Below are positions 57,060-63,955 of a stretch of DNA of 64,000 nucleotides, piece by piece (position 1 is the first letter of the stretch; each line of letters begins with the position of its first letter). The position numbers and the translations under genes were made by a program. Below the pieces are notes generated by a model. That model was not told the DNA's origin and searched no databases. It worked only from the letters and a program-made list of their open reading frames with translations. This stretch comes from Chlorobiales bacterium Clorobi_01 (lineage in GTDB: Bacteria; Bacteroidota; Chlorobiia; Chlorobiales; Chlorobiaceae), in contig LUZT01000006.1 of NCBI GenBank assembly GCA_001602925.1, positions 632,438 to 696,437 of the forward strand, written 5' to 3'.

Positions 57060-57755
57060 TCAATCATTTCGTCGGTTCATCACCATCACGTAGTAAAGTA
57101 ACTGCATGATCGCCTGTGCGGCGGCAGCTACGTAGGTCAGAGCGGCGGCGTCAAGCACGGCGTTTACGCCTGCCATCTCACGCTGCGAAACGATGCCCTG
57201 TGAAACCAGCAACTCCTTGGCGCGTCGGCTGGCATCGAATTCCACCGGCAGCGTCACCAAAGCGAACAGTGCCGTTCCTGCGAAGAGAATGATTCCCGCC
57301 CACGCCAGCGAGCTTCCAAGCACGCCGTGCATGAACAGGCCTATCATGAACAGGATCGGCCCGAGATTGCTGCCGATAGAGACTACGGGCACCATTGCCG
57401 ATCGGATGGCGAGCGGCGAGTAGTTTACCTTGTCCTGCAAGGCGTGTCCGGCCTCATGGGCGGCTACACCCACCGATGCGATGCTTGGCAGACTGTAGAC
57501 CTCCTCGCTGAGGCGAAGCACTTTTTGGCGCGGGTCGTAGTGGTCGGAGAGCATTCCCCGGGTCATTTCGACGTTTACATTGCCCAAACCACCACGCTGG
57601 AGAAGACGCAGGGCCGCCTGTGCGCCGGTAACGCCGCTCTGGGTTGCCACCTGCGAATATTTCTTGAACGCCGATTTCACCTTGAACTGCGCCCAGATGC
57701 CAAGGAGCAGCGGGGGCAAGGCGAAGAAAAAATATGCCGGATCGAAATAAAACAT
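57060..57755 (-). CDS. Putative neutral zinc metallopeptidase (YugP-like)
   Basis: LSDHYDP, VAAHEAGHALQ (HExxH), TLPVEFDAS, AAALTYVAA. Confidence 0.93.
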   Translation of the reverse strand: MFYFDPAYFFFALPPLLLGIWAQFKVKSAFKKYSQVATQSGVTGAQAALRLLQRGGLGNVNVEMTRGMLSDHYDPRQKVLRLSEEVYSLPSIASVGVAAHEAGHALQDKVNYSPLAIRSAMVPVVSIGSNLGPILFMIGLFMHGVLGSSLAWAGIILFAGTALFALVTLPVEFDASRRAKELLVSQGIVSQREMAGVNAVLDAAALTYVAAAAQAIMQLLYYVMVMNRRND

Positions 57756-57974
57756 GGTTCTATCGAAAAATTGTTGAACGGTTTTGAACGGTAAATCTGC
57801 CAAAAAAACAACAGAGGGGCAAGAATCTTTTCGATGAGTAGTGGCTGAGGCTGGTGCTCATCGTATTGAATCGGCCATTTGTCCCAGATTTAGACGATAA
57901 ACATTCGAGTCTCTTGCATTGCGCAAGCGGGCAATAAAAAAAGCCGCCCTATACTGACTGGACGGCTTTTTTAG

Positions 57975-58305: not shown

Positions 58306-58578
58306 TCAATTTTGTGTGGCAGGCGGATCGTACTGCTTCAGGTCATTCGGATCGACGACACCTTCCTTGCCGCTCAGGTCGACAGGCGTGTCTGAATTGG
58401 TGTCGAATCCCTGGCTGGAGCCATACTTCGCACCTTCGTCGGTGGGTTCCCTGGTTGCGGCTTCGCTGTCTCTCGATGTGTCCCTCAATTGATCATACGC
58501 GCTTTCTGCATGCAGATTCGTTTGTGCGAGTGTTCCTGAAACTGCAAGAATCAGCAACATGCCGAATACTTTTTTCAT
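58306..58578 (-). CDS. Small secreted acidic hypothetical protein
   Basis: Signal-peptide-like MKKVFGMLLILAVSGTLA followed by a D/E/S/T-rich mature region. Confidence 0.7.
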   Translation of the reverse strand: MKKVFGMLLILAVSGTLAQTNLHAESAYDQLRDTSRDSEAATREPTDEGAKYGSSQGFDTNSDTPVDLSGKEGVVDPNDLKQYDPPATQN

Positions 58579-58823
58579 CGCCGTAAAATTGAGATTGTTT
58601 TTTGTACAGATTACACAAGAACAATGCTTATAATATAAAGTTAGACTATAAATTAGTTAAGCTCTTTTTCCAATCTGATGTGATCAATCAGTTTCTGATT
58701 GCATCGTTACAACCTCTTCCTCAAGGTCAGCTTTTCCGGACCAGTCGCTGTAAGCGGCAAAGAAGCAGGGGGCACCTCATGCAGGTCGGTTCTGGTTGCG
58801 CCATCCAACCGGTTTCATGTCAT

Positions 58824-59843
58824 ATGAAGTACGCCGTTCAAAGAATTTCGAGGCTGATTTCTCTGCTCTTCGTTCTGACCTTTTTCCATGATACCGTGTC
58901 TGCGATTCCTTTGTCTCCAGGGCCACGTCAGCCCGGCGAGGTTATTCTTGAGGAAGTGGTGGCCGGGTCGGGTGGATTTGTTGTTCGCGTGGGCAGCAAC
59001 GGATGCACCAGCAAAAACTCGTTCGAGGTGCTGGTGAACAAAAAACCGGGCCTTACTGATCTCGCGCCGCACTACGAACTGACGATTGTCCGCAAGGTGC
59101 CAGATGAGTGCAAGGCGATTGTCGAGGATGGCACTGTGATTGCGTATGATCTGAAGCAGGATCTCGGCATCTCTGGTCACTACACCTATACCATTACCAA
59201 TCCCGTTTATTCGCCGCGCCCATACGCGGATACGAGTGATTACTATCTGCCTAATGCCTTGAAGGATGCGGTGCCTGATTTTCCCAAGGTTACAGAGGTG
59301 CGCCCCGAGCCATTCGAGAAGTACACTGCCAGGCCGGACTTTTTTTCCTGCCTCGTGCCTGTGGACTGGACGCGGAGTGCCGCCGATCCGGAAGGTGACG
59401 CAAAAGCCGGGATTTATCAGGTTCAGCTCACCAGAGACGGGCTTGCCAGGCCGGAGGATGGTGAAAAGTACTCTTTTCCGCGTCCACTCATCTATGTCGG
59501 CTACTATGCCCTCGGCAACCGTGAGGGAAAAACGTATGCAAACTATCTGGCCGATTACGACCGGCTGATGCGCAAGAACACGGGCAGCAAACAGTCATCG
59601 TACAGCAAACCTGTGAAGACGACGGTCGCTGGGCTTGAGGCGACTGTTACCGATTACGAGGTCTGGCAGGCGCTTCCGCGTGGCCCGCTGTTTACCACAA
59701 AGTACTGGCTGAAGGCTCGTTTCGTGGTTGTCAAAGCAAGGCAGGGATTTTATGTGCTGGCATTCAAAAGTCCAAAAGAGTTCTATAATCAGAGCTTCCC
59801 CACATTCCAGGCGGTGCTTGACTCCTTCGTTCCCAAACGGTAA
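58824..59843 (+). CDS. Secreted two-domain hypothetical protein (C-terminal PsbP/Mog1-like)
   Basis: Signal-like N-terminus; SNGCT...PDECKA domain; C-terminal FSCLVPVDW...YVLAFKS...FQAVLDSF pattern. Fold assignment by eye. Confidence 0.6.
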   Translation: MKYAVQRISRLISLLFVLTFFHDTVSAIPLSPGPRQPGEVILEEVVAGSGGFVVRVGSNGCTSKNSFEVLVNKKPGLTDLAPHYELTIVRKVPDECKAIVEDGTVIAYDLKQDLGISGHYTYTITNPVYSPRPYADTSDYYLPNALKDAVPDFPKVTEVRPEPFEKYTARPDFFSCLVPVDWTRSAADPEGDAKAGIYQVQLTRDGLARPEDGEKYSFPRPLIYVGYYALGNREGKTYANYLADYDRLMRKNTGSKQSSYSKPVKTTVAGLEATVTDYEVWQALPRGPLFTTKYWLKARFVVVKARQGFYVLAFKSPKEFYNQSFPTFQAVLDSFVPKR

Positions 59844-59855
59844 AACGACTTCGCC

Positions 59856-60233
59856 ATGCCGGATATCAGGATAAAACCGACGCGCTCCACGTTGACCATG
59901 ATGCGAATTGCGTCGTTTATCGTGGCGCTTGTCGGCGCGGGTATGATCGCGGGCGTTGTGAGCAACGGCCTGCTCGAAGAGGGGGGCGTGTTTGTCATCA
60001 TCTGGATCGCGGCCTGCGTTGCGATCATCGGCTTCGCGCTCTTCATGGCTTTTAGCCAAAAGGTGAGCCATGACGGGATCGTCAGCATCGAAGATGCGGG
60101 GGAGTCGCAATCCGCCTCTGATGCCCAAAGCGTGGAGGCTCGGCTGAAAACGCTTGACGGGCTCAAGCGTCAAAAGCTCATAAGTGACGAGGAGTACCGG
60201 AAGCAGCGGGAGAAGATCATTCAAAGCGTGTGA
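59856..60233 (+). CDS. Two-TM membrane protein with C-terminal SHOCT domain
   Basis: Two hydrophobic helices, then VEARLKTLDGLKRQKLISDEEYRKQREKII. Confidence 0.85.
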   Translation: MPDIRIKPTRSTLTMMRIASFIVALVGAGMIAGVVSNGLLEEGGVFVIIWIAACVAIIGFALFMAFSQKVSHDGIVSIEDAGESQSASDAQSVEARLKTLDGLKRQKLISDEEYRKQREKIIQSV

Positions 60234-60269
60234 TTTTGCTGACTTCGTCAATCAAACAAAGGAGTGGGA

Positions 60270-60665
60270 ATGAACAATCAGATCGACAGGCCGGAAGGGG
60301 AGCTTCGTTCCAGATTGGCCAGAGGCGAGCGGTTGCTTGACATCGGGCAGAAGCTTGGCATCGCGATTCCGGCGGGGCTGCTGCTTTTCTGCGGCGTGAA
60401 CGCTTCGGCGATGACTCGCGATGCTGTGAAAATATCCTTTTCGCCGGACGCCGCGCGCGAGAACGAGGTGGCCCGGCATCTCACGGAGATTACGAACAAT
60501 CCGGGCGGCGTGCGGCTTGCCGACCAGGGCAATCCACTGCACGAAAACACCCATGTCGATACCAACAGTCCCGATGTGCATAGTGATTATTCGGACAGCG
60601 GCAAGCACACCAACTCGCATGGTAACGTGCATACCAATACACACGGCGACGTGAATCGCTACTGA
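60270..60665 (+). CDS. Putative RiPP precursor with His/Tyr-X-Asp/Asn repeats
   Basis: AAGGAG SD 5 nt before the ATG; 131 aa; C-terminus HENTHVDTNSPDVHSDYSDSGKHTNSHGNVHTNTHGDVNRY; stop 3 nt before the rSAM gene. Confidence 0.8.
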   Translation: MNNQIDRPEGELRSRLARGERLLDIGQKLGIAIPAGLLLFCGVNASAMTRDAVKISFSPDAARENEVARHLTEITNNPGGVRLADQGNPLHENTHVDTNSPDVHSDYSDSGKHTNSHGNVHTNTHGDVNRY

Positions 60666-60668
60666 ACG

Positions 60669-61862
60669 ATGCCCGGTATGAAGACCAGAGAGGAGTTTCT
60701 CGAAAAACTCGCTCAGGCGGGCAAGCTGATCCTGATTTTTCAACTGACCGATCAGTGTGTGCTTTCGTGCCGGTATTGCTTCGCGAAAGGCTCCCATCCA
60801 TCCGGAGGCCTTCGCATTGCCGATGACCTGCTCGAAGCGGCCATCCGGAGCGCGTTCGATACGCGCCACCGTGAAGTCTCCTTCGAGTGGACGGGAGGAG
60901 AGCCGTTTTTCGCAGGCATCGATTTTTATCGCAAGGTCGATCGCCTCCAGAAAAAGTACGCCACCAAGCCCTACGCGAATACCATTCAGACGAGTGGCTA
61001 TGTGCATGACCGGGAGTTGATCGCCTGGCTTGCCGGGCACGGTTTTCACATCTCCTCGACCATCGACGGCCCGCCGGAACTGCATGATTTCCAGCGCCCT
61101 GCGAACGGCGGGGGCCCGTCGCTCGCCACGGTGCTCGCAACGCGCGAAACGATCATCGAGCATCAGGGGCACTGTGGCTGCATCTGCACGGTCACGCGGA
61201 ACAGTCTCGGCAAGGAGGGGGCGATTCTTGATTACTACCGTTCGCTCGGCATTGAAGCCTTTCACAGCAATCCGTATCACTATTTTTCCGAAAATCTTGT
61301 TGGCGACGAAAGTCTCGCGCTCGATGCTGACGGCTACGCCGCGTATTTCATCGCCCAGTTCAACGCCTGGTTCGAGGGCGGGCGCAAGCTCCCGATGCCC
61401 GGCACGCTCAACTACATTCTGCGCTCGCTGGCTGCAGGAGCCGGGTTGAAGCAGTCGGTCTGCACCTTCGGCGGGCGCTGCCTGACCAATTTTCTGGCCA
61501 TCACGCCCGATGGCGATGCGTGGCTTTGCCCCAAGTTCGCGGGTTTCGATGAGATGCGTCTCGGCAACGTTGGCAAGATGGCTATCACCGACATCCTTTC
61601 TGACGCCAATCCCGCCATGGCGCGCCTCATCGACGAGCGCCTTGAGGCGATGCACACCTGCGAAGCGGATGAGTGCCGCTTCCAGTACCTCTGCAACGCG
61701 GGGTGTCCCTACTACTCTTTCATCGCCAGCGGAGGCCGGAACATCGCCGCGAAGGATTCCCTTTGCACAGGCAAGCAGCTGCTCTTCGAATACCTCGAAT
61801 CGGTGGTCGAACTGATCGATCCCGCCCAGCTTTCCGAACCTAGACCCCTCGAACATGCGTAA
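60669..61862 (+). CDS. Radical SAM / SPASM domain peptide maturase
   Basis: CVLSCRYC (CxxxCxxC), WTGGEP, SPASM cysteines Cx5Cx15C and Cx4Cx5Cx3Cx19C. Confidence 0.93.
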   Translation: MPGMKTREEFLEKLAQAGKLILIFQLTDQCVLSCRYCFAKGSHPSGGLRIADDLLEAAIRSAFDTRHREVSFEWTGGEPFFAGIDFYRKVDRLQKKYATKPYANTIQTSGYVHDRELIAWLAGHGFHISSTIDGPPELHDFQRPANGGGPSLATVLATRETIIEHQGHCGCICTVTRNSLGKEGAILDYYRSLGIEAFHSNPYHYFSENLVGDESLALDADGYAAYFIAQFNAWFEGGRKLPMPGTLNYILRSLAAGAGLKQSVCTFGGRCLTNFLAITPDGDAWLCPKFAGFDEMRLGNVGKMAITDILSDANPAMARLIDERLEAMHTCEADECRFQYLCNAGCPYYSFIASGGRNIAAKDSLCTGKQLLFEYLESVVELIDPAQLSEPRPLEHA

Positions 61863-62658
61863 CATTATCCGTCGCGCGGAGGCTGTCCGCCATCTTTTCG
61901 TCGTCGCGTTGCTCGCTCTGCTTCTTCTGCCCGTCGATGTCCCGGCCCGCATGGCCGAACGCATGGCTGATCCGGTTGGCAAGACCGACTCCTATTTTTC
62001 CGATAACGGAGTATGGGAAGTTGCGATCACCTACGGGAACCTCTTCCACTCGTGGAGCCTGAAGAAAAACGGGCAGGAGCTCTGGCATCACGCACTCATG
62101 GACGAACCCGGCAGCGCGGCGGTTTCGGACAACGGCGAGGTGATCACGTTGCCGCTCTGGGGCTGGCGCGACGAGGGTGGTTCGAGCGGGATCGCCGTGT
62201 ACAACGGTCAGGGTGAACCGGTTCGGGAGATCATGTTCCGAAACGCGGACGGCAGTGAGAGCCTGCGCTGGGTGCGCCGGATAGCGATTGCTCCCGAAGG
62301 CTCGTGCATCGCCATCGGCGAGAACAGGCGGGAGGCTGCGCTGGTAACGATGTTCGATGTAACCAGTGGCAACATTGTCTGGGAAACGAATGCCGGTTTG
62401 CCGGAGATTGATGATGTCAGGGTGAGCGCCAAGGGTGAATATACGCTTGCCGCCACTTCAAAGTATGGCACCGGCAATATGGAGTTTCTGCTCTTCGACA
62501 AGCATGGAACAGCGATATGGAGCGAAAAGCGATCTGGAAATCTCTCGTTGGATGTAAAAATGTATGTCAGATTTCTTGCCGACGGCAAAGGTTTTGAGAT
62601 ATACGATCTGAAGTCCAAATCCTGGATGAAACGGCGATTTCCCGCTCAGAAACATTGA
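61855..62658 (+). CDS. Secreted beta-propeller-like hypothetical protein
   Basis: Hydrophobic N-terminal signal; blade-like repeats (AAVSDNGE, IAIAPEGS, VRVSAKGE, VRFLADGK); start overlaps the rSAM stop. Confidence 0.6.
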   Translation: MRNIIRRAEAVRHLFVVALLALLLLPVDVPARMAERMADPVGKTDSYFSDNGVWEVAITYGNLFHSWSLKKNGQELWHHALMDEPGSAAVSDNGEVITLPLWGWRDEGGSSGIAVYNGQGEPVREIMFRNADGSESLRWVRRIAIAPEGSCIAIGENRREAALVTMFDVTSGNIVWETNAGLPEIDDVRVSAKGEYTLAATSKYGTGNMEFLLFDKHGTAIWSEKRSGNLSLDVKMYVRFLADGKGFEIYDLKSKSWMKRRFPAQKH

Positions 62659-62821
62659 CTTAAAGCCCTTGGTCATTCAGGAATTTTTATAAGTATCGAT
62701 TTCTCCATTTTCGACATGATTGTTCCCGTCGAGTGATTCCTTTTTTGTGCCGTGAATTCTGAGGGATATATTTCAATAGAAGTATCACGACTCGCTTCAA
62801 CGGTTCAAACAGGGATGCAGG

Positions 62822-63736
62822 ATGAGCGATCAGGTTTCAACTGCGGCGCGCGATCATGAGTGGTTTGACTATTACCAGCGCTTCAGCTATTTCTCTCCGG
62901 AATCGGTGCGTGATGGTTGTCATCCCAGAATCCTGGAGCATCCACAATCGCCCCAGAAGGCGATTGTTCTCGTTCATGGTCTTTCCGATTCTCCTTACTT
63001 CATGACGGCGATCGGTGACTATTTTTTCAATCGCCTCGGTTACAATGTCTACATGCCATTGCTGCACTGCCACGGTTTGAGAGAGCCAAACGGTATGGAG
63101 GGAGTCGAACTCGAAGAGTGGAAGTCGAATGTCAGCTTTGCCATCAGCACGGCGGCGCGGAAGTCGAGCGAGGTTTCAATCGGCGGGCTGTCCACCGGCG
63201 GAACGCTGGGCTTGTACATGGCAGCGATCAATCCGAAAATCCGGGGCACACTCTATCTCTTCTCGGCGGCACTCGATCTGGCGGGCGGCCCGTTTGGCCT
63301 CGTCGGAGAGCTGAAAGAGAAGCTGCTGCTGACCTTTCTGACTGATCTCCTCGATTTTAACACTCCTTTGATCGGAGAGAATCCCTACCGGTACAGCTCG
63401 GTTGACATGGATGGCGCGGTGCAACTTGCCCGGCTCATCAAGGAGACCGACATTATCATCGACCTGTTCGACTCACGATTTCCCTTTTCTGAAAAAGTGT
63501 TTGCGGCGCACTCCGAATCCGACACTACCGCCGATATTGCCGGCATCGAAGCATTGCAGAATATCTCTGATCAAGCGCGATTCAACTTTTTTAGAATTCC
63601 CAAAAATCTCTCCGTGCCACACGCGAGCGTCGTGCTCGACATGCCGATTGAGCACGATGGCAAAGAGCTGGAACCCCGGAACCCGCTGTTCCCTGAAATG
63701 ATGCAGGCAATAGCAGCTTTTGAAACAATCGGATAA
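62822..63736 (+). CDS. Alpha/beta hydrolase (carboxylesterase-like)
   Basis: VLVHGLSDSP, nucleophile elbow GLSTGG, SDTTAD, VPH catalytic-triad candidates. Confidence 0.9.
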   Translation: MSDQVSTAARDHEWFDYYQRFSYFSPESVRDGCHPRILEHPQSPQKAIVLVHGLSDSPYFMTAIGDYFFNRLGYNVYMPLLHCHGLREPNGMEGVELEEWKSNVSFAISTAARKSSEVSIGGLSTGGTLGLYMAAINPKIRGTLYLFSAALDLAGGPFGLVGELKEKLLLTFLTDLLDFNTPLIGENPYRYSSVDMDGAVQLARLIKETDIIIDLFDSRFPFSEKVFAAHSESDTTADIAGIEALQNISDQARFNFFRIPKNLSVPHASVVLDMPIEHDGKELEPRNPLFPEMMQAIAAFETIG

Positions 63737-63955
63737 GGCGTTTTTTGCCCGGTGCATGACGAATAATGTCAGAGGGCGTGATAACGATTTCTCTCTGGAT
63801 TTCGAGTGTTTGTGACGGCATGGGAGACGGTGTGAGCCTCTCTGTCGTTGAGCACTTTTCGATGATATTTTGTACACCAGGCATATGAGTTTCGATTGCG
63901 ATAAAGGTAAGCTGAAATAACCTTTTCCGGTCTCTTCAATGCAACTCTGATTCCC

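What the first reader, a model, noticed from the sequence alone, without database searches (positions are those of the whole stretch)
60270..61862. Candidate new radical-SAM RiPP: precursor with eight His/Tyr-X-Asp/Asn triplets plus a SPASM maturase
Seen in sequence: the 131-aa ORF ends in HEN-T-HVD-TNSPDV-HSD-YSD-SGK-HTN-S-HGN-V-HTN-T-HGD-VNRY. That is seven H-X-[N/D] triplets plus one Y-X-D, mostly on a four-residue period. It has a good SD, and its stop lies 3 nt before a CxxxCxxC enzyme with full SPASM cysteine clusters and no N-terminal RRE-sized extension. Established: triceptide maturases are rSAM/SPASM enzymes that cross-link an aromatic residue to the residue two positions downstream (Omega1-X2-X3); His- and Tyr-based motifs are known, as are His-Xaa-Ser repeat systems. 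Inference: this enzyme installs up to eight His-to-Asn/Asp and Tyr-to-Asp cyclophanes. I know of no such H-X-N/D system characterised in green sulfur bacteria. No sulfatase with a C/SxPxR motif is visible nearby, which argues against a sulfatase-maturase role.
Basis: partly seen in the sequence, partly recalled or inferred. Interest (0 to 1): 0.93.

Follow-up and report, generated by a model that had tools for sequence, protein, structure and literature searches.

The report
His-x-Asn/Asp repeat peptide with radical-SAM maturase
A small, probably secreted peptide whose tail is a string of His-x-Asn/Asp triplets sits next to a radical-SAM enzyme, and this uncharacterised gene pair recurs from green sulfur bacteria to gut Bacteroidales, so it is a good lead for a new modified-peptide family, though its chemistry is only inferred.

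Summary
ORF 60270-60665 (131 aa, AGGAG 5 nt upstream) ends in seven H-x-N/D triplets plus YSD. Three nt later starts a 397-aa radical-SAM/SPASM enzyme with CxxxCxxC at residues 30-37, eight SPASM cysteines and no RRE.

The pairing is not chance. Of 23 loci fetched with rSAM homologues (39-91% identity; several phyla), 22 carry a small H-x-N/D-repeat ORF beside the enzyme. In a divergent clade that ORF lies downstream and has a different leader. Across 20 precursors, 162 of 179 His have N/D at +2. No other neighbouring gene is conserved.

The enzyme passes no curated family cut-off; its nearest relatives are anSME and DynA. The residue aligned with anSME's proposed catalytic Asp277 is an invariant Pro, and the window has no sulfatase signature. 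No Pfam or NCBIfam model matches the precursors, and I found no paper on the family.

Best reading: in the cytoplasm the enzyme links each His (or Tyr) to the Cβ of the Asn/Asp two residues on, and the product is exported by Sec, perhaps to bind metal. The enzyme-substrate pairing is well supported. The chemistry and the function are inferred. This is a new variant of a known kind.

The parts
60260..60264 (+). Shine-Dalgarno AGGAG, 5 nt before the precursor ATG
   Evidence: Read directly from the sequence.
60270..60665 (+). Precursor gene (131 aa plus stop). Predicted largely disordered.
   Evidence: Homologues at 47-89% identity. No Pfam or NCBIfam match. AF2 pLDDT 49 with an unstructured core.
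60354..60410 (+). Signal-peptide-like stretch LGIAIPAGLLLFCGVNASA (residues 29-47). It holds the family-invariant L-G-I-x-x-P and an AxA site (ASA|M).
   Evidence: Invariant in A1 and A3. Mean Kyte-Doolittle hydrophobicity 2.3 over 15 residues. Six basic residues (against five acidic) lie upstream, and a small-x-small site follows. The same layout is seen in 14 of 16 clade-A precursors. Heuristic only; no SignalP run.
60462..60470 (+). N-E-V motif (residues 65-67) at the start of a predicted helix. It is the most widely kept leader motif in clade A and a candidate recognition element for the enzyme.
   Evidence: N65 is invariant in A1 and nearly invariant in A3. The motif is also kept in members that lack the hydrophobic stretch, P0157 and P0167. 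Predicted helices 59-64 and 66-76.
60540..60662 (+). Core region (residues 91-131): seven H-x-N/D triplets plus YSD, the proposed modification sites, and a C-terminal NRY.
60669..61862 (+). Radical-SAM/SPASM maturase (397 aa, anSME/ChlB-like fold, no RRE)
   Evidence: Pfam Radical_SAM, SPASM and Fer4_12; NCBIfam TIGR04085 above its cut-off. AF2 pLDDT 88.9. Foldseek TM 0.77-0.84 to anSMEcpe and 0.77-0.82 to ChlB.
60756..60779 (+). CxxxCxxC (C30, C34, C37), ligands of the radical-SAM [4Fe-4S] cluster
   Evidence: Invariant in 20 homologues; coordinates.
61461..61766 (+). SPASM region with eight invariant Cys (265, 271, 287, 331, 336, 342, 346, 366), enough to ligate two auxiliary [4Fe-4S] clusters fully. 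Includes the invariant C287-P288-K289-F290.
   Evidence: Alignment to anSMEcpe C255, C261, C276, C317, C320, C326, C330 and C348. Ligand numbering from PMC5715301.
61855..62658 (+). Downstream 267-aa ORF whose start overlaps the rSAM stop by 8 nt. N-terminal hydrophobic signal-like stretch and weak beta-propeller (PQQ_2) similarity. Lineage-specific and probably co-transcribed, but not part of the conserved unit.
   Evidence: Found only in the close Chlorobiales loci L005 and L006 at 74% identity.

Best explanation
This is a self-contained two-gene RiPP-like cassette. The precursor is a disordered peptide of about 130 aa. It has a leader (a Sec-type signal peptide containing LGIxxP, then an NEV helix) and a C-terminal core of repeated H-x-[N/D] triplets. 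Before export, the cytoplasmic radical-SAM/SPASM enzyme binds the precursor. At each triplet, 5'-deoxyadenosyl radical removes a Cβ hydrogen from the Asn/Asp at position i+2. The Cβ radical then attacks the imidazole of the His at position i, most likely at C2 and alternatively at Nτ, or the phenol ring at the Tyr site. An auxiliary Fe-S cluster takes up the electron. Each event leaves a three-residue cyclophane and a mass change of -2 Da, up to eight in this peptide. The Sec system then exports the multiply cross-linked peptide and signal peptidase I trims it, which explains why no dedicated protease or transporter is present. In the periplasm or outside the cell it probably acts as a rigid, protease-resistant metal ligand built from imidazole and carboxylate/carboxamide groups. 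What is shown: the genes, the motifs, the Fe-S ligand set, the fold, and the cross-phylum enzyme-precursor pairing. What is inferred: the target atoms, the type of cross-link, Sec export, and metal binding.
For: (1) Pairing. Of 23 loci fetched with rSAM homologues at 39-91% identity (18 non-redundant), 22 have an H-x-N/D-repeat ORF adjacent. They come from Chlorobiales, Elusimicrobiales, Bacteroidales, Rhizomicrobium and Deltaproteobacteria. In clade B (L021, L023, L024, L026) the ORF is downstream and has a different, non-secretory leader. All-against-all comparison of flanking ORFs finds no other conserved neighbour. (2) Which positions are constrained. Of 179 His in 20 precursors, 162 (91%) have N (53%) or D (38%) at +2. 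Position +1 is mostly T/S but also G, A, V, E, K, C and I. N and D exchange freely between orthologues. His is replaced by Tyr at orthologous sites: motif 2 in P0146, and HGN becomes YGK in P0131. This is the aromatic-X-X pattern of triceptides. (3) Enzyme. It has the full three-cluster Cys set. The fold matches anSMEcpe and the triceptide synthase ChlB about equally well (TM about 0.8). The best HMM relatives, anSME, DynA, DarW and DarE, all abstract a Cβ-H. (4) Precedent. His C2-Cβ links are known to Ala, Arg, Lys and Ser (HaaB, YhhB, HtkB, MicB). Trp or Tyr links to Asn/Asp Cβ are known (XncB, OscB, YxdB). Dynobactin has a His Nτ-Cβ link. DarE is retrieved by the anSME model and still makes aromatic-Cβ cross-links, including Trp1-Asn3 in a variant. 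(5) Export. In 14 of 16 clade-A precursors there is a hydrophobic 15-mer (KD 1.7-2.3), usually preceded by a net-basic N-region (9 of 14; nearly balanced in the window and in L016) and followed by a small-x-small site in every case, mostly an AxA-type one. Bufferins are a precedent for Sec-exported RiPP metallophores. The AF2 model shows a disordered core, as expected for a peptide substrate.
Against: No experiment or read-out of the chemistry exists. The enzyme is below the cut-off of every known cyclophane-synthase model, so the reaction is not transferable by homology. Position +1 is Thr/Ser in 70% of triplets, which leaves room for chemistry on that residue. The signal peptide is judged by heuristics only. 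Some members (Paludibacter L001, P0157, P0167, clade B) lack it, so export is not universal. The unusual invariance of LGIxxP inside a signal peptide is unexplained. Metal binding is a guess from composition. Metatranscriptome-labelled runs gave flat, low contig depth and say nothing about expression.
Confidence: 0.55

Rival explanations
1. The enzyme performs anSME-like two-electron oxidation of the middle Ser/Thr of H-[S/T]-[N/D] to formylglycine or a β-keto residue. His and Asn/Asp would then serve as recognition elements rather than reaction partners.
For: anSME is the closest family by HMM and by structure. Position +1 is T (43%) or S (27%). DarE makes formylglycine when Ser is placed at its target position.
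Against: In the window peptide only four of eight triplets have S/T at +1. The G in HGN and HGD is itself conserved, whereas His and N/D are the constrained positions. The residue aligned with anSMEcpe Asp277 is an invariant Pro in CPKF. The role of Asp277 as general base is my recollection of Goldman et al. 2013; that paper was not held in the library.
Confidence: 0.12
2. The enzyme carries out a different radical-SAM modification of the repeat. Examples are Cα epimerisation of His or Asn/Asp, a cross-link with another register (for instance N/D Cβ to the next His at i+2), or an ether link. The product would then not be a string of i/i+2 His cyclophanes.
For: The enzyme belongs to no characterised family. 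SPASM and twitch enzymes include epimerases (EpeE appears among the fold matches). The frequent four-residue period (H at +4 in 41% of cases) also places each N/D two residues before the next His.
Against: Isolated triplets that are not followed by a His at +4 still keep N/D at +2, for example HVD-TNSP and the terminal HGD-VNRY. All known aromatic-Cβ rSAM links of this size run from aromatic i to Cβ i+2. The producers are strict anaerobes by my own knowledge, which argues against O2-dependent ether formation.
Confidence: 0.18
3. The enzyme is a genuine sulfatase maturase (or another housekeeping rSAM) and the neighbouring His-rich ORF is an unrelated secreted protein.
For: One database source names a homologue 'AslB/AtsB family protein'. 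TIGR03942 is the top HMM hit.
Against: The TIGR03942 score is 160 bits against a cut-off of 349. No sulfatase signature occurs in the window. The H-x-N/D ORF follows the enzyme across phyla and across a change in gene order. The residue aligned with Asp277 is Pro.
Confidence: 0.03
4. The enzyme forms thioether (sactipeptide or ranthipeptide type) links from the precursor's Cys residues.
For: Most non-Chlorobaculum precursors carry two conserved Cys, one mid-core and one near the C-terminus. PapB, CteB and SCIFF maturases are among the weaker hits.
Against: The Chlorobaculum precursors have no Cys outside the signal peptide. There are two Cys against 4-13 H-x-N/D triplets. A periplasmic disulfide explains the Cys pair more simply.
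Confidence: 0.03

Closest known systems
Triceptides and their three-residue cyclophane-forming rSAM/SPASM enzymes (XncB, OscB/GrrM, YxdB, HaaB, YhhB, HtkB, ChlB, MicB)
   Same: The precursor has repeated aromatic-X-X motifs next to an RRE-less rSAM/SPASM enzyme. His and Tyr are known ring donors, and Asn and Asp are known Cβ acceptors. The predicted fold matches ChlB with TM about 0.8.
   Different: Sequence scores to GrrM/OscB, YhhB and AmcB are far below their cut-offs. I found no report of the His-to-Asn/Asp combination. The precursors are long (88-160 aa), carry up to 13 motifs, and mostly have a Sec signal peptide. No protease or exporter genes accompany the pair.
DynA/DarE/DarW (dynobactin and darobactin maturases; daropeptide and bamabactin lineage)
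   Same: After anSME these are among the best HMM relatives: DynA 149 bits, DarW 109, DarE 87. They are anSME-like enzymes that cross-link an aromatic residue to a Cβ nearby. Dynobactin contains a His Nτ-Cβ link and a Trp-Asn Cβ link.
   Different: All scores are below the cut-offs of 450-650 bits. The roughly 60-residue N-terminal extension that DarE needs is absent, since CxxxCxxC starts at residue 30 here. The cores differ: many repeats here rather than a single 7-10-residue core. There is no ABC transporter.
Anaerobic sulfatase-maturating enzyme (anSME; TIGR03942; PDB 4K36-4K39)
   Same: This is the closest sequence and structure match: 160-175 bits and TM 0.77-0.84. It has the same three [4Fe-4S] Cys ligand sets and also acts on a Sec-exported substrate before export.
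   Different: The score is below the family cut-off. The spacing is CX4CX5CX3C instead of CX2CX5CX3C. The Asp277 equivalent is Pro. No sulfatase or C/SxPxR substrate is present, and a dedicated peptide partner takes its place.
His-Xaa-Ser repeat system (HxsA with HxsB, HxsC, HxsD)
   Same: A His-rich triplet-repeat peptide is paired with radical-SAM chemistry.
   Different: The third residue is N/D here; Ser at +2 is absent from the seven commonest residues (each 1% or more). There is one rSAM rather than the HxsB/HxsC pair plus HxsD. HxsB scores 87 bits against a cut-off of 370, over the N-terminal half only. No NCBIfam model matched the precursors.
Bufferins (MNIO-modified, Sec-exported periplasmic copper-binding RiPPs)
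   Same: The logic is the same: a long precursor with a Sec signal peptide, modification in the cytoplasm, export by Sec, no dedicated protease or transporter, and metal-ligand side chains.
   Different: The enzyme class is unrelated (MNIO plus DUF2063 rather than rSAM/SPASM). Bufferins modify Cys to thiooxazole. Here His and N/D are the conserved residues, and metal binding is only a guess.

Membership tests
Radical-SAM/SPASM superfamily | CxxxCxxC motif plus a C-terminal Cys-rich SPASM domain able to bind two auxiliary [4Fe-4S] clusters | tested here: met
   C30, C34 and C37 plus eight invariant SPASM-region Cys. PF04055 scores 42 bits (cut-off 29.5), PF13186 26.1 (21.5) and TIGR04085 39.7 (27). 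The fold is confirmed.
Anaerobic sulfatase maturase (TIGR03942) | Score above the curated equivalog cut-off | tested here: not met
   159.9 bits against a cut-off of 349.45. PRK13758 scores 98.8 against 441 and PRK13745 88.6 against 484.
Anaerobic sulfatase maturase (TIGR03942) | A sulfatase substrate with C/S-x-P-x-R in the genome or neighbourhood | tested here: not met
   No sulfatase signature (PS00523-like or a looser form) in six frames of the 64-kb window. Only the window could be tested, not the whole genome.
Anaerobic sulfatase maturase (TIGR03942) | Proposed catalytic base Asp277 (anSMEcpe numbering) next to Aux I ligand Cys276 | tested here: not met
   C276-D277 aligns with the invariant C287-P288. 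The role of D277 is recalled from Goldman et al. 2013; that paper was not held.
Triceptide maturases (3-CyFE) | Precursor with aromatic-X-X motifs encoded next to an rSAM/SPASM enzyme | tested here: met
   Seven H-x-N/D plus YSD in the window. In the family, 91% of His have N/D at +2, and His/Tyr swaps occur at orthologous sites.
Triceptide maturases (3-CyFE) | Sequence membership in a characterised 3-CyFE family (GrrM/OscB TIGR04261, YhhB NF041707, AmcB NF041718) | tested here: not met
   66.5 bits against 310, 53.3 against 445 and 74.6 against 425. ChlB matches by sequence over the N-terminal half only (57 bits), although the whole fold matches (TM about 0.8).
Triceptide maturases (3-CyFE) | Product contains aromatic-C to Cβ(i+2) cross-links (-2 Da each) | not testable with these tools
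   This needs co-expression followed by MS/MS and NMR.
Dynobactin/darobactin maturases (DynA NF041298, DarE NF038005, DarW NF041300) | Score above the curated cut-off, and the N-terminal extension of about 60 aa used for leader binding (DarE) | tested here: not met
   148.6 bits against 450, 87.1 against 650 and 109.4 against 650. CxxxCxxC starts at residue 30, so the extension is absent. The DarE requirement is taken from PMC10705402.
His-Xaa-Ser system (HxsA/B/C/D) | H-x-S repeat peptide with paired rSAMs HxsB and HxsC plus HxsD | tested here: not met
   HxsB TIGR03978 scores 87.1 bits against 370. Only one rSAM is present per locus. Position +2 is N/D in 91% of cases and Ser is absent from the seven commonest residues there (each 1% or more). 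No NCBIfam model matched the 16 precursors.
Sec-exported RiPPs (bufferin-like logic) | N-terminal Sec/SPase I signal peptide on the precursor and no dedicated exporter or protease | tested here: inconclusive
   A heuristic finds the signal features in 14 of 16 clade-A precursors, and no conserved exporter or protease is present. No dedicated predictor or experiment was available, and some members lack the signal. There is no MNIO enzyme, so this is a likeness of logic and not membership.

The most novel reading that the evidence does not exclude
This is a previously undescribed class of Sec-exported peptides bearing multiple cyclophanes, found in strict anaerobes (gut Bacteroidales, green sulfur bacteria, Elusimicrobia). 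An anSME-derived rSAM/SPASM enzyme installs up to about 13 His-to-Asn/Asp cross-links, a link not yet reported. The conserved LGIxxP signal peptide doubles as part of the RiPP leader. The mature product is a rigid periplasmic or extracellular poly-imidazole metal ligand.
Probability: 0.3. Interest if true: 0.75.

Novelty: new variant of a known kind. Interest (0 to 1): 0.62.

Why it matters
If the inference holds, four things follow.

- It adds a new enzyme family and a new donor-acceptor pair (His with Asn/Asp) to rSAM cyclophane chemistry.
- It shows another branch of the anSME lineage recruited for peptide cross-linking.
- It extends the recently recognised idea of RiPPs with Sec signal peptides from MNIO enzymes to radical-SAM enzymes.
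- Many members come from gut and rumen Bacteroidales (Alistipes, Prevotella, Tannerella, Rikenellaceae), so the product could bear on metal handling or on competition in anaerobic communities.

The cassette has only two genes, so the test by co-expression and mass spectrometry is simple.

Tried and rejected
- **Sulfatase-maturase role.** Rejected because the score is below the cut-off, Asp277 is replaced by Pro, and the window has no sulfatase signature.
- **HxsA/HxsB system.** Rejected.
- **Lipoprotein.** The Cys in IPAC/LLFC is not conserved across the family (it varies among C, S, G, F and E) and the lipobox positions do not fit.
- **Accessory genes.** All-against-all comparison of flanking ORFs found none conserved. 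The 267-aa downstream ORF, the SHOCT protein and the α/β-hydrolase are shared only with close Chlorobiales. An SDR lies near the pair in both Paludibacter and Rhizomicrobium, but with different orientation and distance, so this is probably chance.
- **Expression evidence.** The two 'RNA-Seq' metagenome runs give flat, low contig depth like DNA and are uninformative.
- **Promoter and terminator scan.** Counts were within about one standard deviation of the shuffled controls, and no convincing site marks the operon ends.
- **Literature.** None described this family. The triceptide landscape paper (JACS 2022) and the anSME structure paper were not held. A mention in those papers or their supplements cannot be excluded.
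- **Structure of the precursor.** The AF2 model has low confidence and is disordered, so it was not searched against structure libraries.
Full report
**1. The observation**

- ORF 60270-60665 (+ strand, 131 aa) starts at an ATG 5 nt after AGGAG (60260-64).
- It ends ...LHENTHVDTNSPDVHSDYSDSGKHTNSHGNVHTNTHGDVNRY. That gives H-x-[N/D] at residues 91, 95, 104, 113, 117, 121 and 125, plus Y107-S-D.
- Its TGA (60663-65) lies 3 nt before the ATG of a 397-aa ORF (60669-61862).
- That ORF has C30-x3-C34-x2-C37 and further Cys at 265, 271, 287, 331, 336, 342, 346 and 366.
- With CxxxCxxC starting at residue 30 there is no room for an RRE.

The pattern is not chance.
- Shuffling the 41-residue core gives a mean of 1.8 H-x-N/D triplets against 7 observed; none of 20,000 shuffles reached 7.
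- No other ORF in any of the six frames of the 64-kb window has even three such triplets within 40 residues.

**2. The enzyme**

- Pfam finds Radical_SAM, SPASM and Fer4_12. NCBIfam's SPASM domain model is above its cut-off.
- No specific family cut-off is reached. Scores against cut-offs are:
  - anSME TIGR03942: 160 against 349
  - DynA: 149 against 450
  - TIGR04083: 127 against 300
  - DarW: 109 against 650
  - DarE: 87 against 650
  - HxsB: 87 against 370
  - AmcB: 75 against 425
  - GrrM/OscB: 66 against 310
  - YhhB: 53 against 445
- A profile of 20 family members finds anSMEcpe (4K36, 175 bits) as the best solved relative. CteB follows, and ChlB matches only over the N-terminal half.
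- The AlphaFold2 model is confident (pLDDT 88.9, pTM 0.88).
- The model superposes about equally well on anSMEcpe (TM 0.77-0.84) and on the triceptide synthase ChlB (TM 0.77-0.82).
- All eight SPASM-region Cys and the CxxxCxxC motif are invariant in 20 homologues. They align with the Aux I and Aux II ligands of anSMEcpe; the ligand numbering comes from PMC5715301.
- The spacing here is CX4CX5CX3C, against CX2CX5CX3C in anSMEcpe.
- anSMEcpe Cys276-Asp277 aligns with an invariant Cys287-Pro288 (CPKF). As I recall from Goldman et al. 2013 (paper not held), Asp277 is the proposed general base for formylglycine formation.
- The window contains no sulfatase signature.

The enzyme is therefore derived from the anSME lineage but is not a sulfatase maturase.

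**3. The pairing, which is the key evidence**

The rSAM has more than 100 database relatives.
- Those at 85-90% identity are Chlorobaculum-like.
- A large group at about 50-57% identity comes from Bacteroidales (Paludibacter, Rikenellaceae, Alistipes, Prevotella, Tannerella).
- Others come from Elusimicrobiales and Rhizomicrobium.
- A divergent clade at 39-45% identity includes Deltaproteobacteria MAGs.

I fetched 26 loci, of which 23 were used for the neighbour analysis.

In the nearer clade (clade A), the ORF immediately upstream of the enzyme has three parts:
- a basic N-terminus followed by [K/S/Q]-L-G-I-x-[I/V]-P and a hydrophobic run;
- an N-E-V motif;
- 4-13 H-x-[N/D] triplets.

In the divergent clade (clade B), an H-x-N/D-repeat ORF lies downstream of the enzyme and has a hydrophilic, unrelated leader. 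Examples are L024:6493-6786, L026:6188-6553, L021:5407-5814 and L023:5224-5535. Only L025 showed no obvious precursor.

Survival of the pairing through a change of gene order and of leader type is strong evidence for an enzyme-substrate relation. All-against-all comparison of every flanking ORF shows that nothing else recurs across taxa. In particular, no protease or transporter does.

**4. What is constrained in the core**

- In 20 precursors, 162 of 179 His (91%) have N (53%) or D (38%) at +2.
- Position +1 is T (43%) or S (27%), with G, A, V, K, E, C and I also seen.
- Position +4 is His in 41% of cases.
- Among close orthologues, N and D exchange freely and the middle residue varies (E/G/S, T/A, T/C).
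- His is replaced by Tyr at orthologous sites: YVD for HVD in P0146, and YGK for HGN in P0131.

A constrained aromatic residue at i and a constrained residue at i+2, with a freer residue between, is the aromatic-X-X signature of three-residue cyclophanes.

**5. What relatives do**

From the literature held:
- Triceptide synthases link Trp to Cβ of Asn, Asp or Arg (XncB, OscB).
- YxdB links Tyr C3 to Asp Cβ.
- His C2 is linked to Cβ of Ala (HaaB, ScaB), Arg (YhhB), Lys (HtkB) or Ser (MicB). Sources are PMC11002830, PMC11499958 and PMC12912966.
- Dynobactin carries a Trp-Asn Cβ link and a His Nτ-Tyr Cβ link.
- DarE is retrieved by the anSME model. It makes aromatic-Cβ links at i/i+2, including Trp1-Asn3 in a W3N variant, and makes formylglycine if Ser is put at the target position (PMC10705402).

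A His-to-Asn/Asp Cβ link therefore recombines a known donor with known acceptors. The lineage to which this enzyme is closest can perform such chemistry.

**6.

- In 14 of 16 clade-A precursors, the LGIxxP stretch is a 15-residue hydrophobic segment (mean Kyte-Doolittle 1.7-2.3). A net-basic N-region usually precedes it (9 of 14; the charges are nearly balanced in the window and in L016). A small-x-small site, mostly AxA-like (ASA|M in the window), follows a few residues later. This is the layout of a Sec/signal peptidase I signal.
- Most non-Chlorobaculum members have one Cys in mid-core and one near the C-terminus. That fits a disulfide formed after export.
- Some members lack the hydrophobic stretch but keep NEV (Paludibacter L001, P0157, P0167). 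NEV is therefore the better candidate for the enzyme's docking element.
- The invariance of LGIxxP inside a signal peptide remains unexplained.
- The precursor model is disordered in the core (pLDDT 49; predicted helices 17-28, 35-47, 59-64 and 66-76). This is typical of a peptide substrate.
- A Sec signal and the absence of a dedicated protease or exporter match the logic recently shown for bufferins, where Sec signals are described as rare in RiPPs (PMC11626156).

**7. Mechanism proposed**

The steps are:
1. In the cytoplasm, the enzyme abstracts a Cβ hydrogen from each N/D.
2. The Cβ radical adds to the His two residues upstream, at C2 (more likely) or Nτ, or to Tyr at the Tyr site.
3. An auxiliary cluster reoxidises the intermediate.
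4. The cross-linked peptide is exported by Sec and trimmed by signal peptidase.

Function is a guess. A rigid array of imidazoles with carboxylate or carboxamide groups suggests metal binding.

My confidence that the two genes are an enzyme-substrate pair is about 0.85. For the whole statement, including the type of cross-link and export, it is about 0.55.

**8. Rivals**

- Oxidation of the middle Ser/Thr in the manner of anSME (0.12). Triplets with a conserved Gly or Val in the middle, and the Asp277-to-Pro change, weaken this.
- Other radical chemistry or another register, including epimerisation (0.18).
- A true sulfatase maturase with a chance neighbour (0.03).
- Thioether formation from Cys (0.03). 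The exported part of the Chlorobaculum peptide has no Cys.

**9. Novelty**

- No Pfam or NCBIfam (release 20, June 2026) model matches any of 16 precursors.
- All database names for the precursors are 'hypothetical protein'.
- The precursor family is small. There are about 20 representatives at 50% clustering in a library of 1.8 billion proteins.
- All ten full-text searches found no description of the family.
- The triceptide landscape paper and its supplements could not be read. An unnamed cluster there cannot be excluded.

I rate this a new variant of a known kind. The enzyme family and precursor family are new and the export logic is unusual. The predicted chemistry is an extension of known cyclophane formation.

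**10. Led nowhere**

- Expression evidence was uninformative.
- The promoter and terminator scan gave nothing usable.
- Neighbour genes offered no functional clue.

Noticed in passing
window 61855-62658 (+): A 267-aa ORF starts 8 nt before the rSAM stop codon. It has an N-terminal hydrophobic, signal-like stretch and weak PQQ_2/BamB-type beta-propeller similarity (E 0.02). It is conserved at 74% identity only in the close Chlorobiales loci L005 and L006 and is absent beside the pair in other phyla.
   Followed up: partly
window 59856-60233 (+): A 125-aa membrane protein with a weak C-terminal SHOCT match ends 36 nt before the precursor gene. It is conserved only in close Chlorobiales. It may share an operon with the precursor, but no function is evident.
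   Followed up: partly
window 60252-61982 (-): A 576-aa antisense ORF spans the precursor and rSAM genes. Similar antisense ORFs appear opposite the rSAM in L005 and L017. It has no family match and I treat it as a shadow ORF of the coding strand.
   Followed up: partly
window 57060-57803 (-): A clear Zn_peptidase_2 (PF04298) putative neutral zinc metallopeptidase with an HEAGH motif (E 1.5e-88). It is on the opposite strand about 2.5 kb upstream and is not conserved near the pair elsewhere.
   Followed up: partly
L021:5407-5814, L024:6493-6786, L026:6188-6553, L023:5224-5535: In the divergent rSAM clade the H-x-N/D peptide lies downstream of the enzyme. It lacks a signal peptide and has a different leader (a W/L-Q-x-G...L-L region). 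L021 and L026 also have large upstream proteins with no Pfam match (559 and 453 aa). The L021 protein ends in Phe, like an outer-membrane protein.
   Followed up: partly
L002, L007, L010, L011, L013, L015-L020 precursors; P0147, P0148, P0158: Most non-Chlorobaculum precursors keep two Cys, one before or within the repeat core and one 1-4 residues from the C-terminus (for example ...HGDSCRY and ...DNPDC). This suggests a disulfide that closes the core after export. The Chlorobaculum clade has lost both.
   Followed up: no
L001:7247-9437: In Paludibacter the rSAM is followed by a short-chain dehydrogenase and an aldehyde dehydrogenase (PF00171, E 2e-76). A homologous SDR lies near the pair in Rhizomicrobium (L016) but on the other strand and not adjacent, so this is probably coincidence.
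   Followed up: partly
window 58500-63800 in runs X1-X20: DNA 95-99% identical to the window occurs in sludge, wastewater, aquaculture and soil metagenomes, so the source is probably an environmental Chlorobaculum-like organism. The closest named relative of the precursor is Chlorobaculum sp. MV4-Y (86% identity).
   Followed up: partly
window 58306-58578 (-): A 90-aa ORF with an N-terminal signal-like sequence and an acidic, Ser/Asp-rich body. It is conserved in L006 and has no Pfam match.
   Followed up: no
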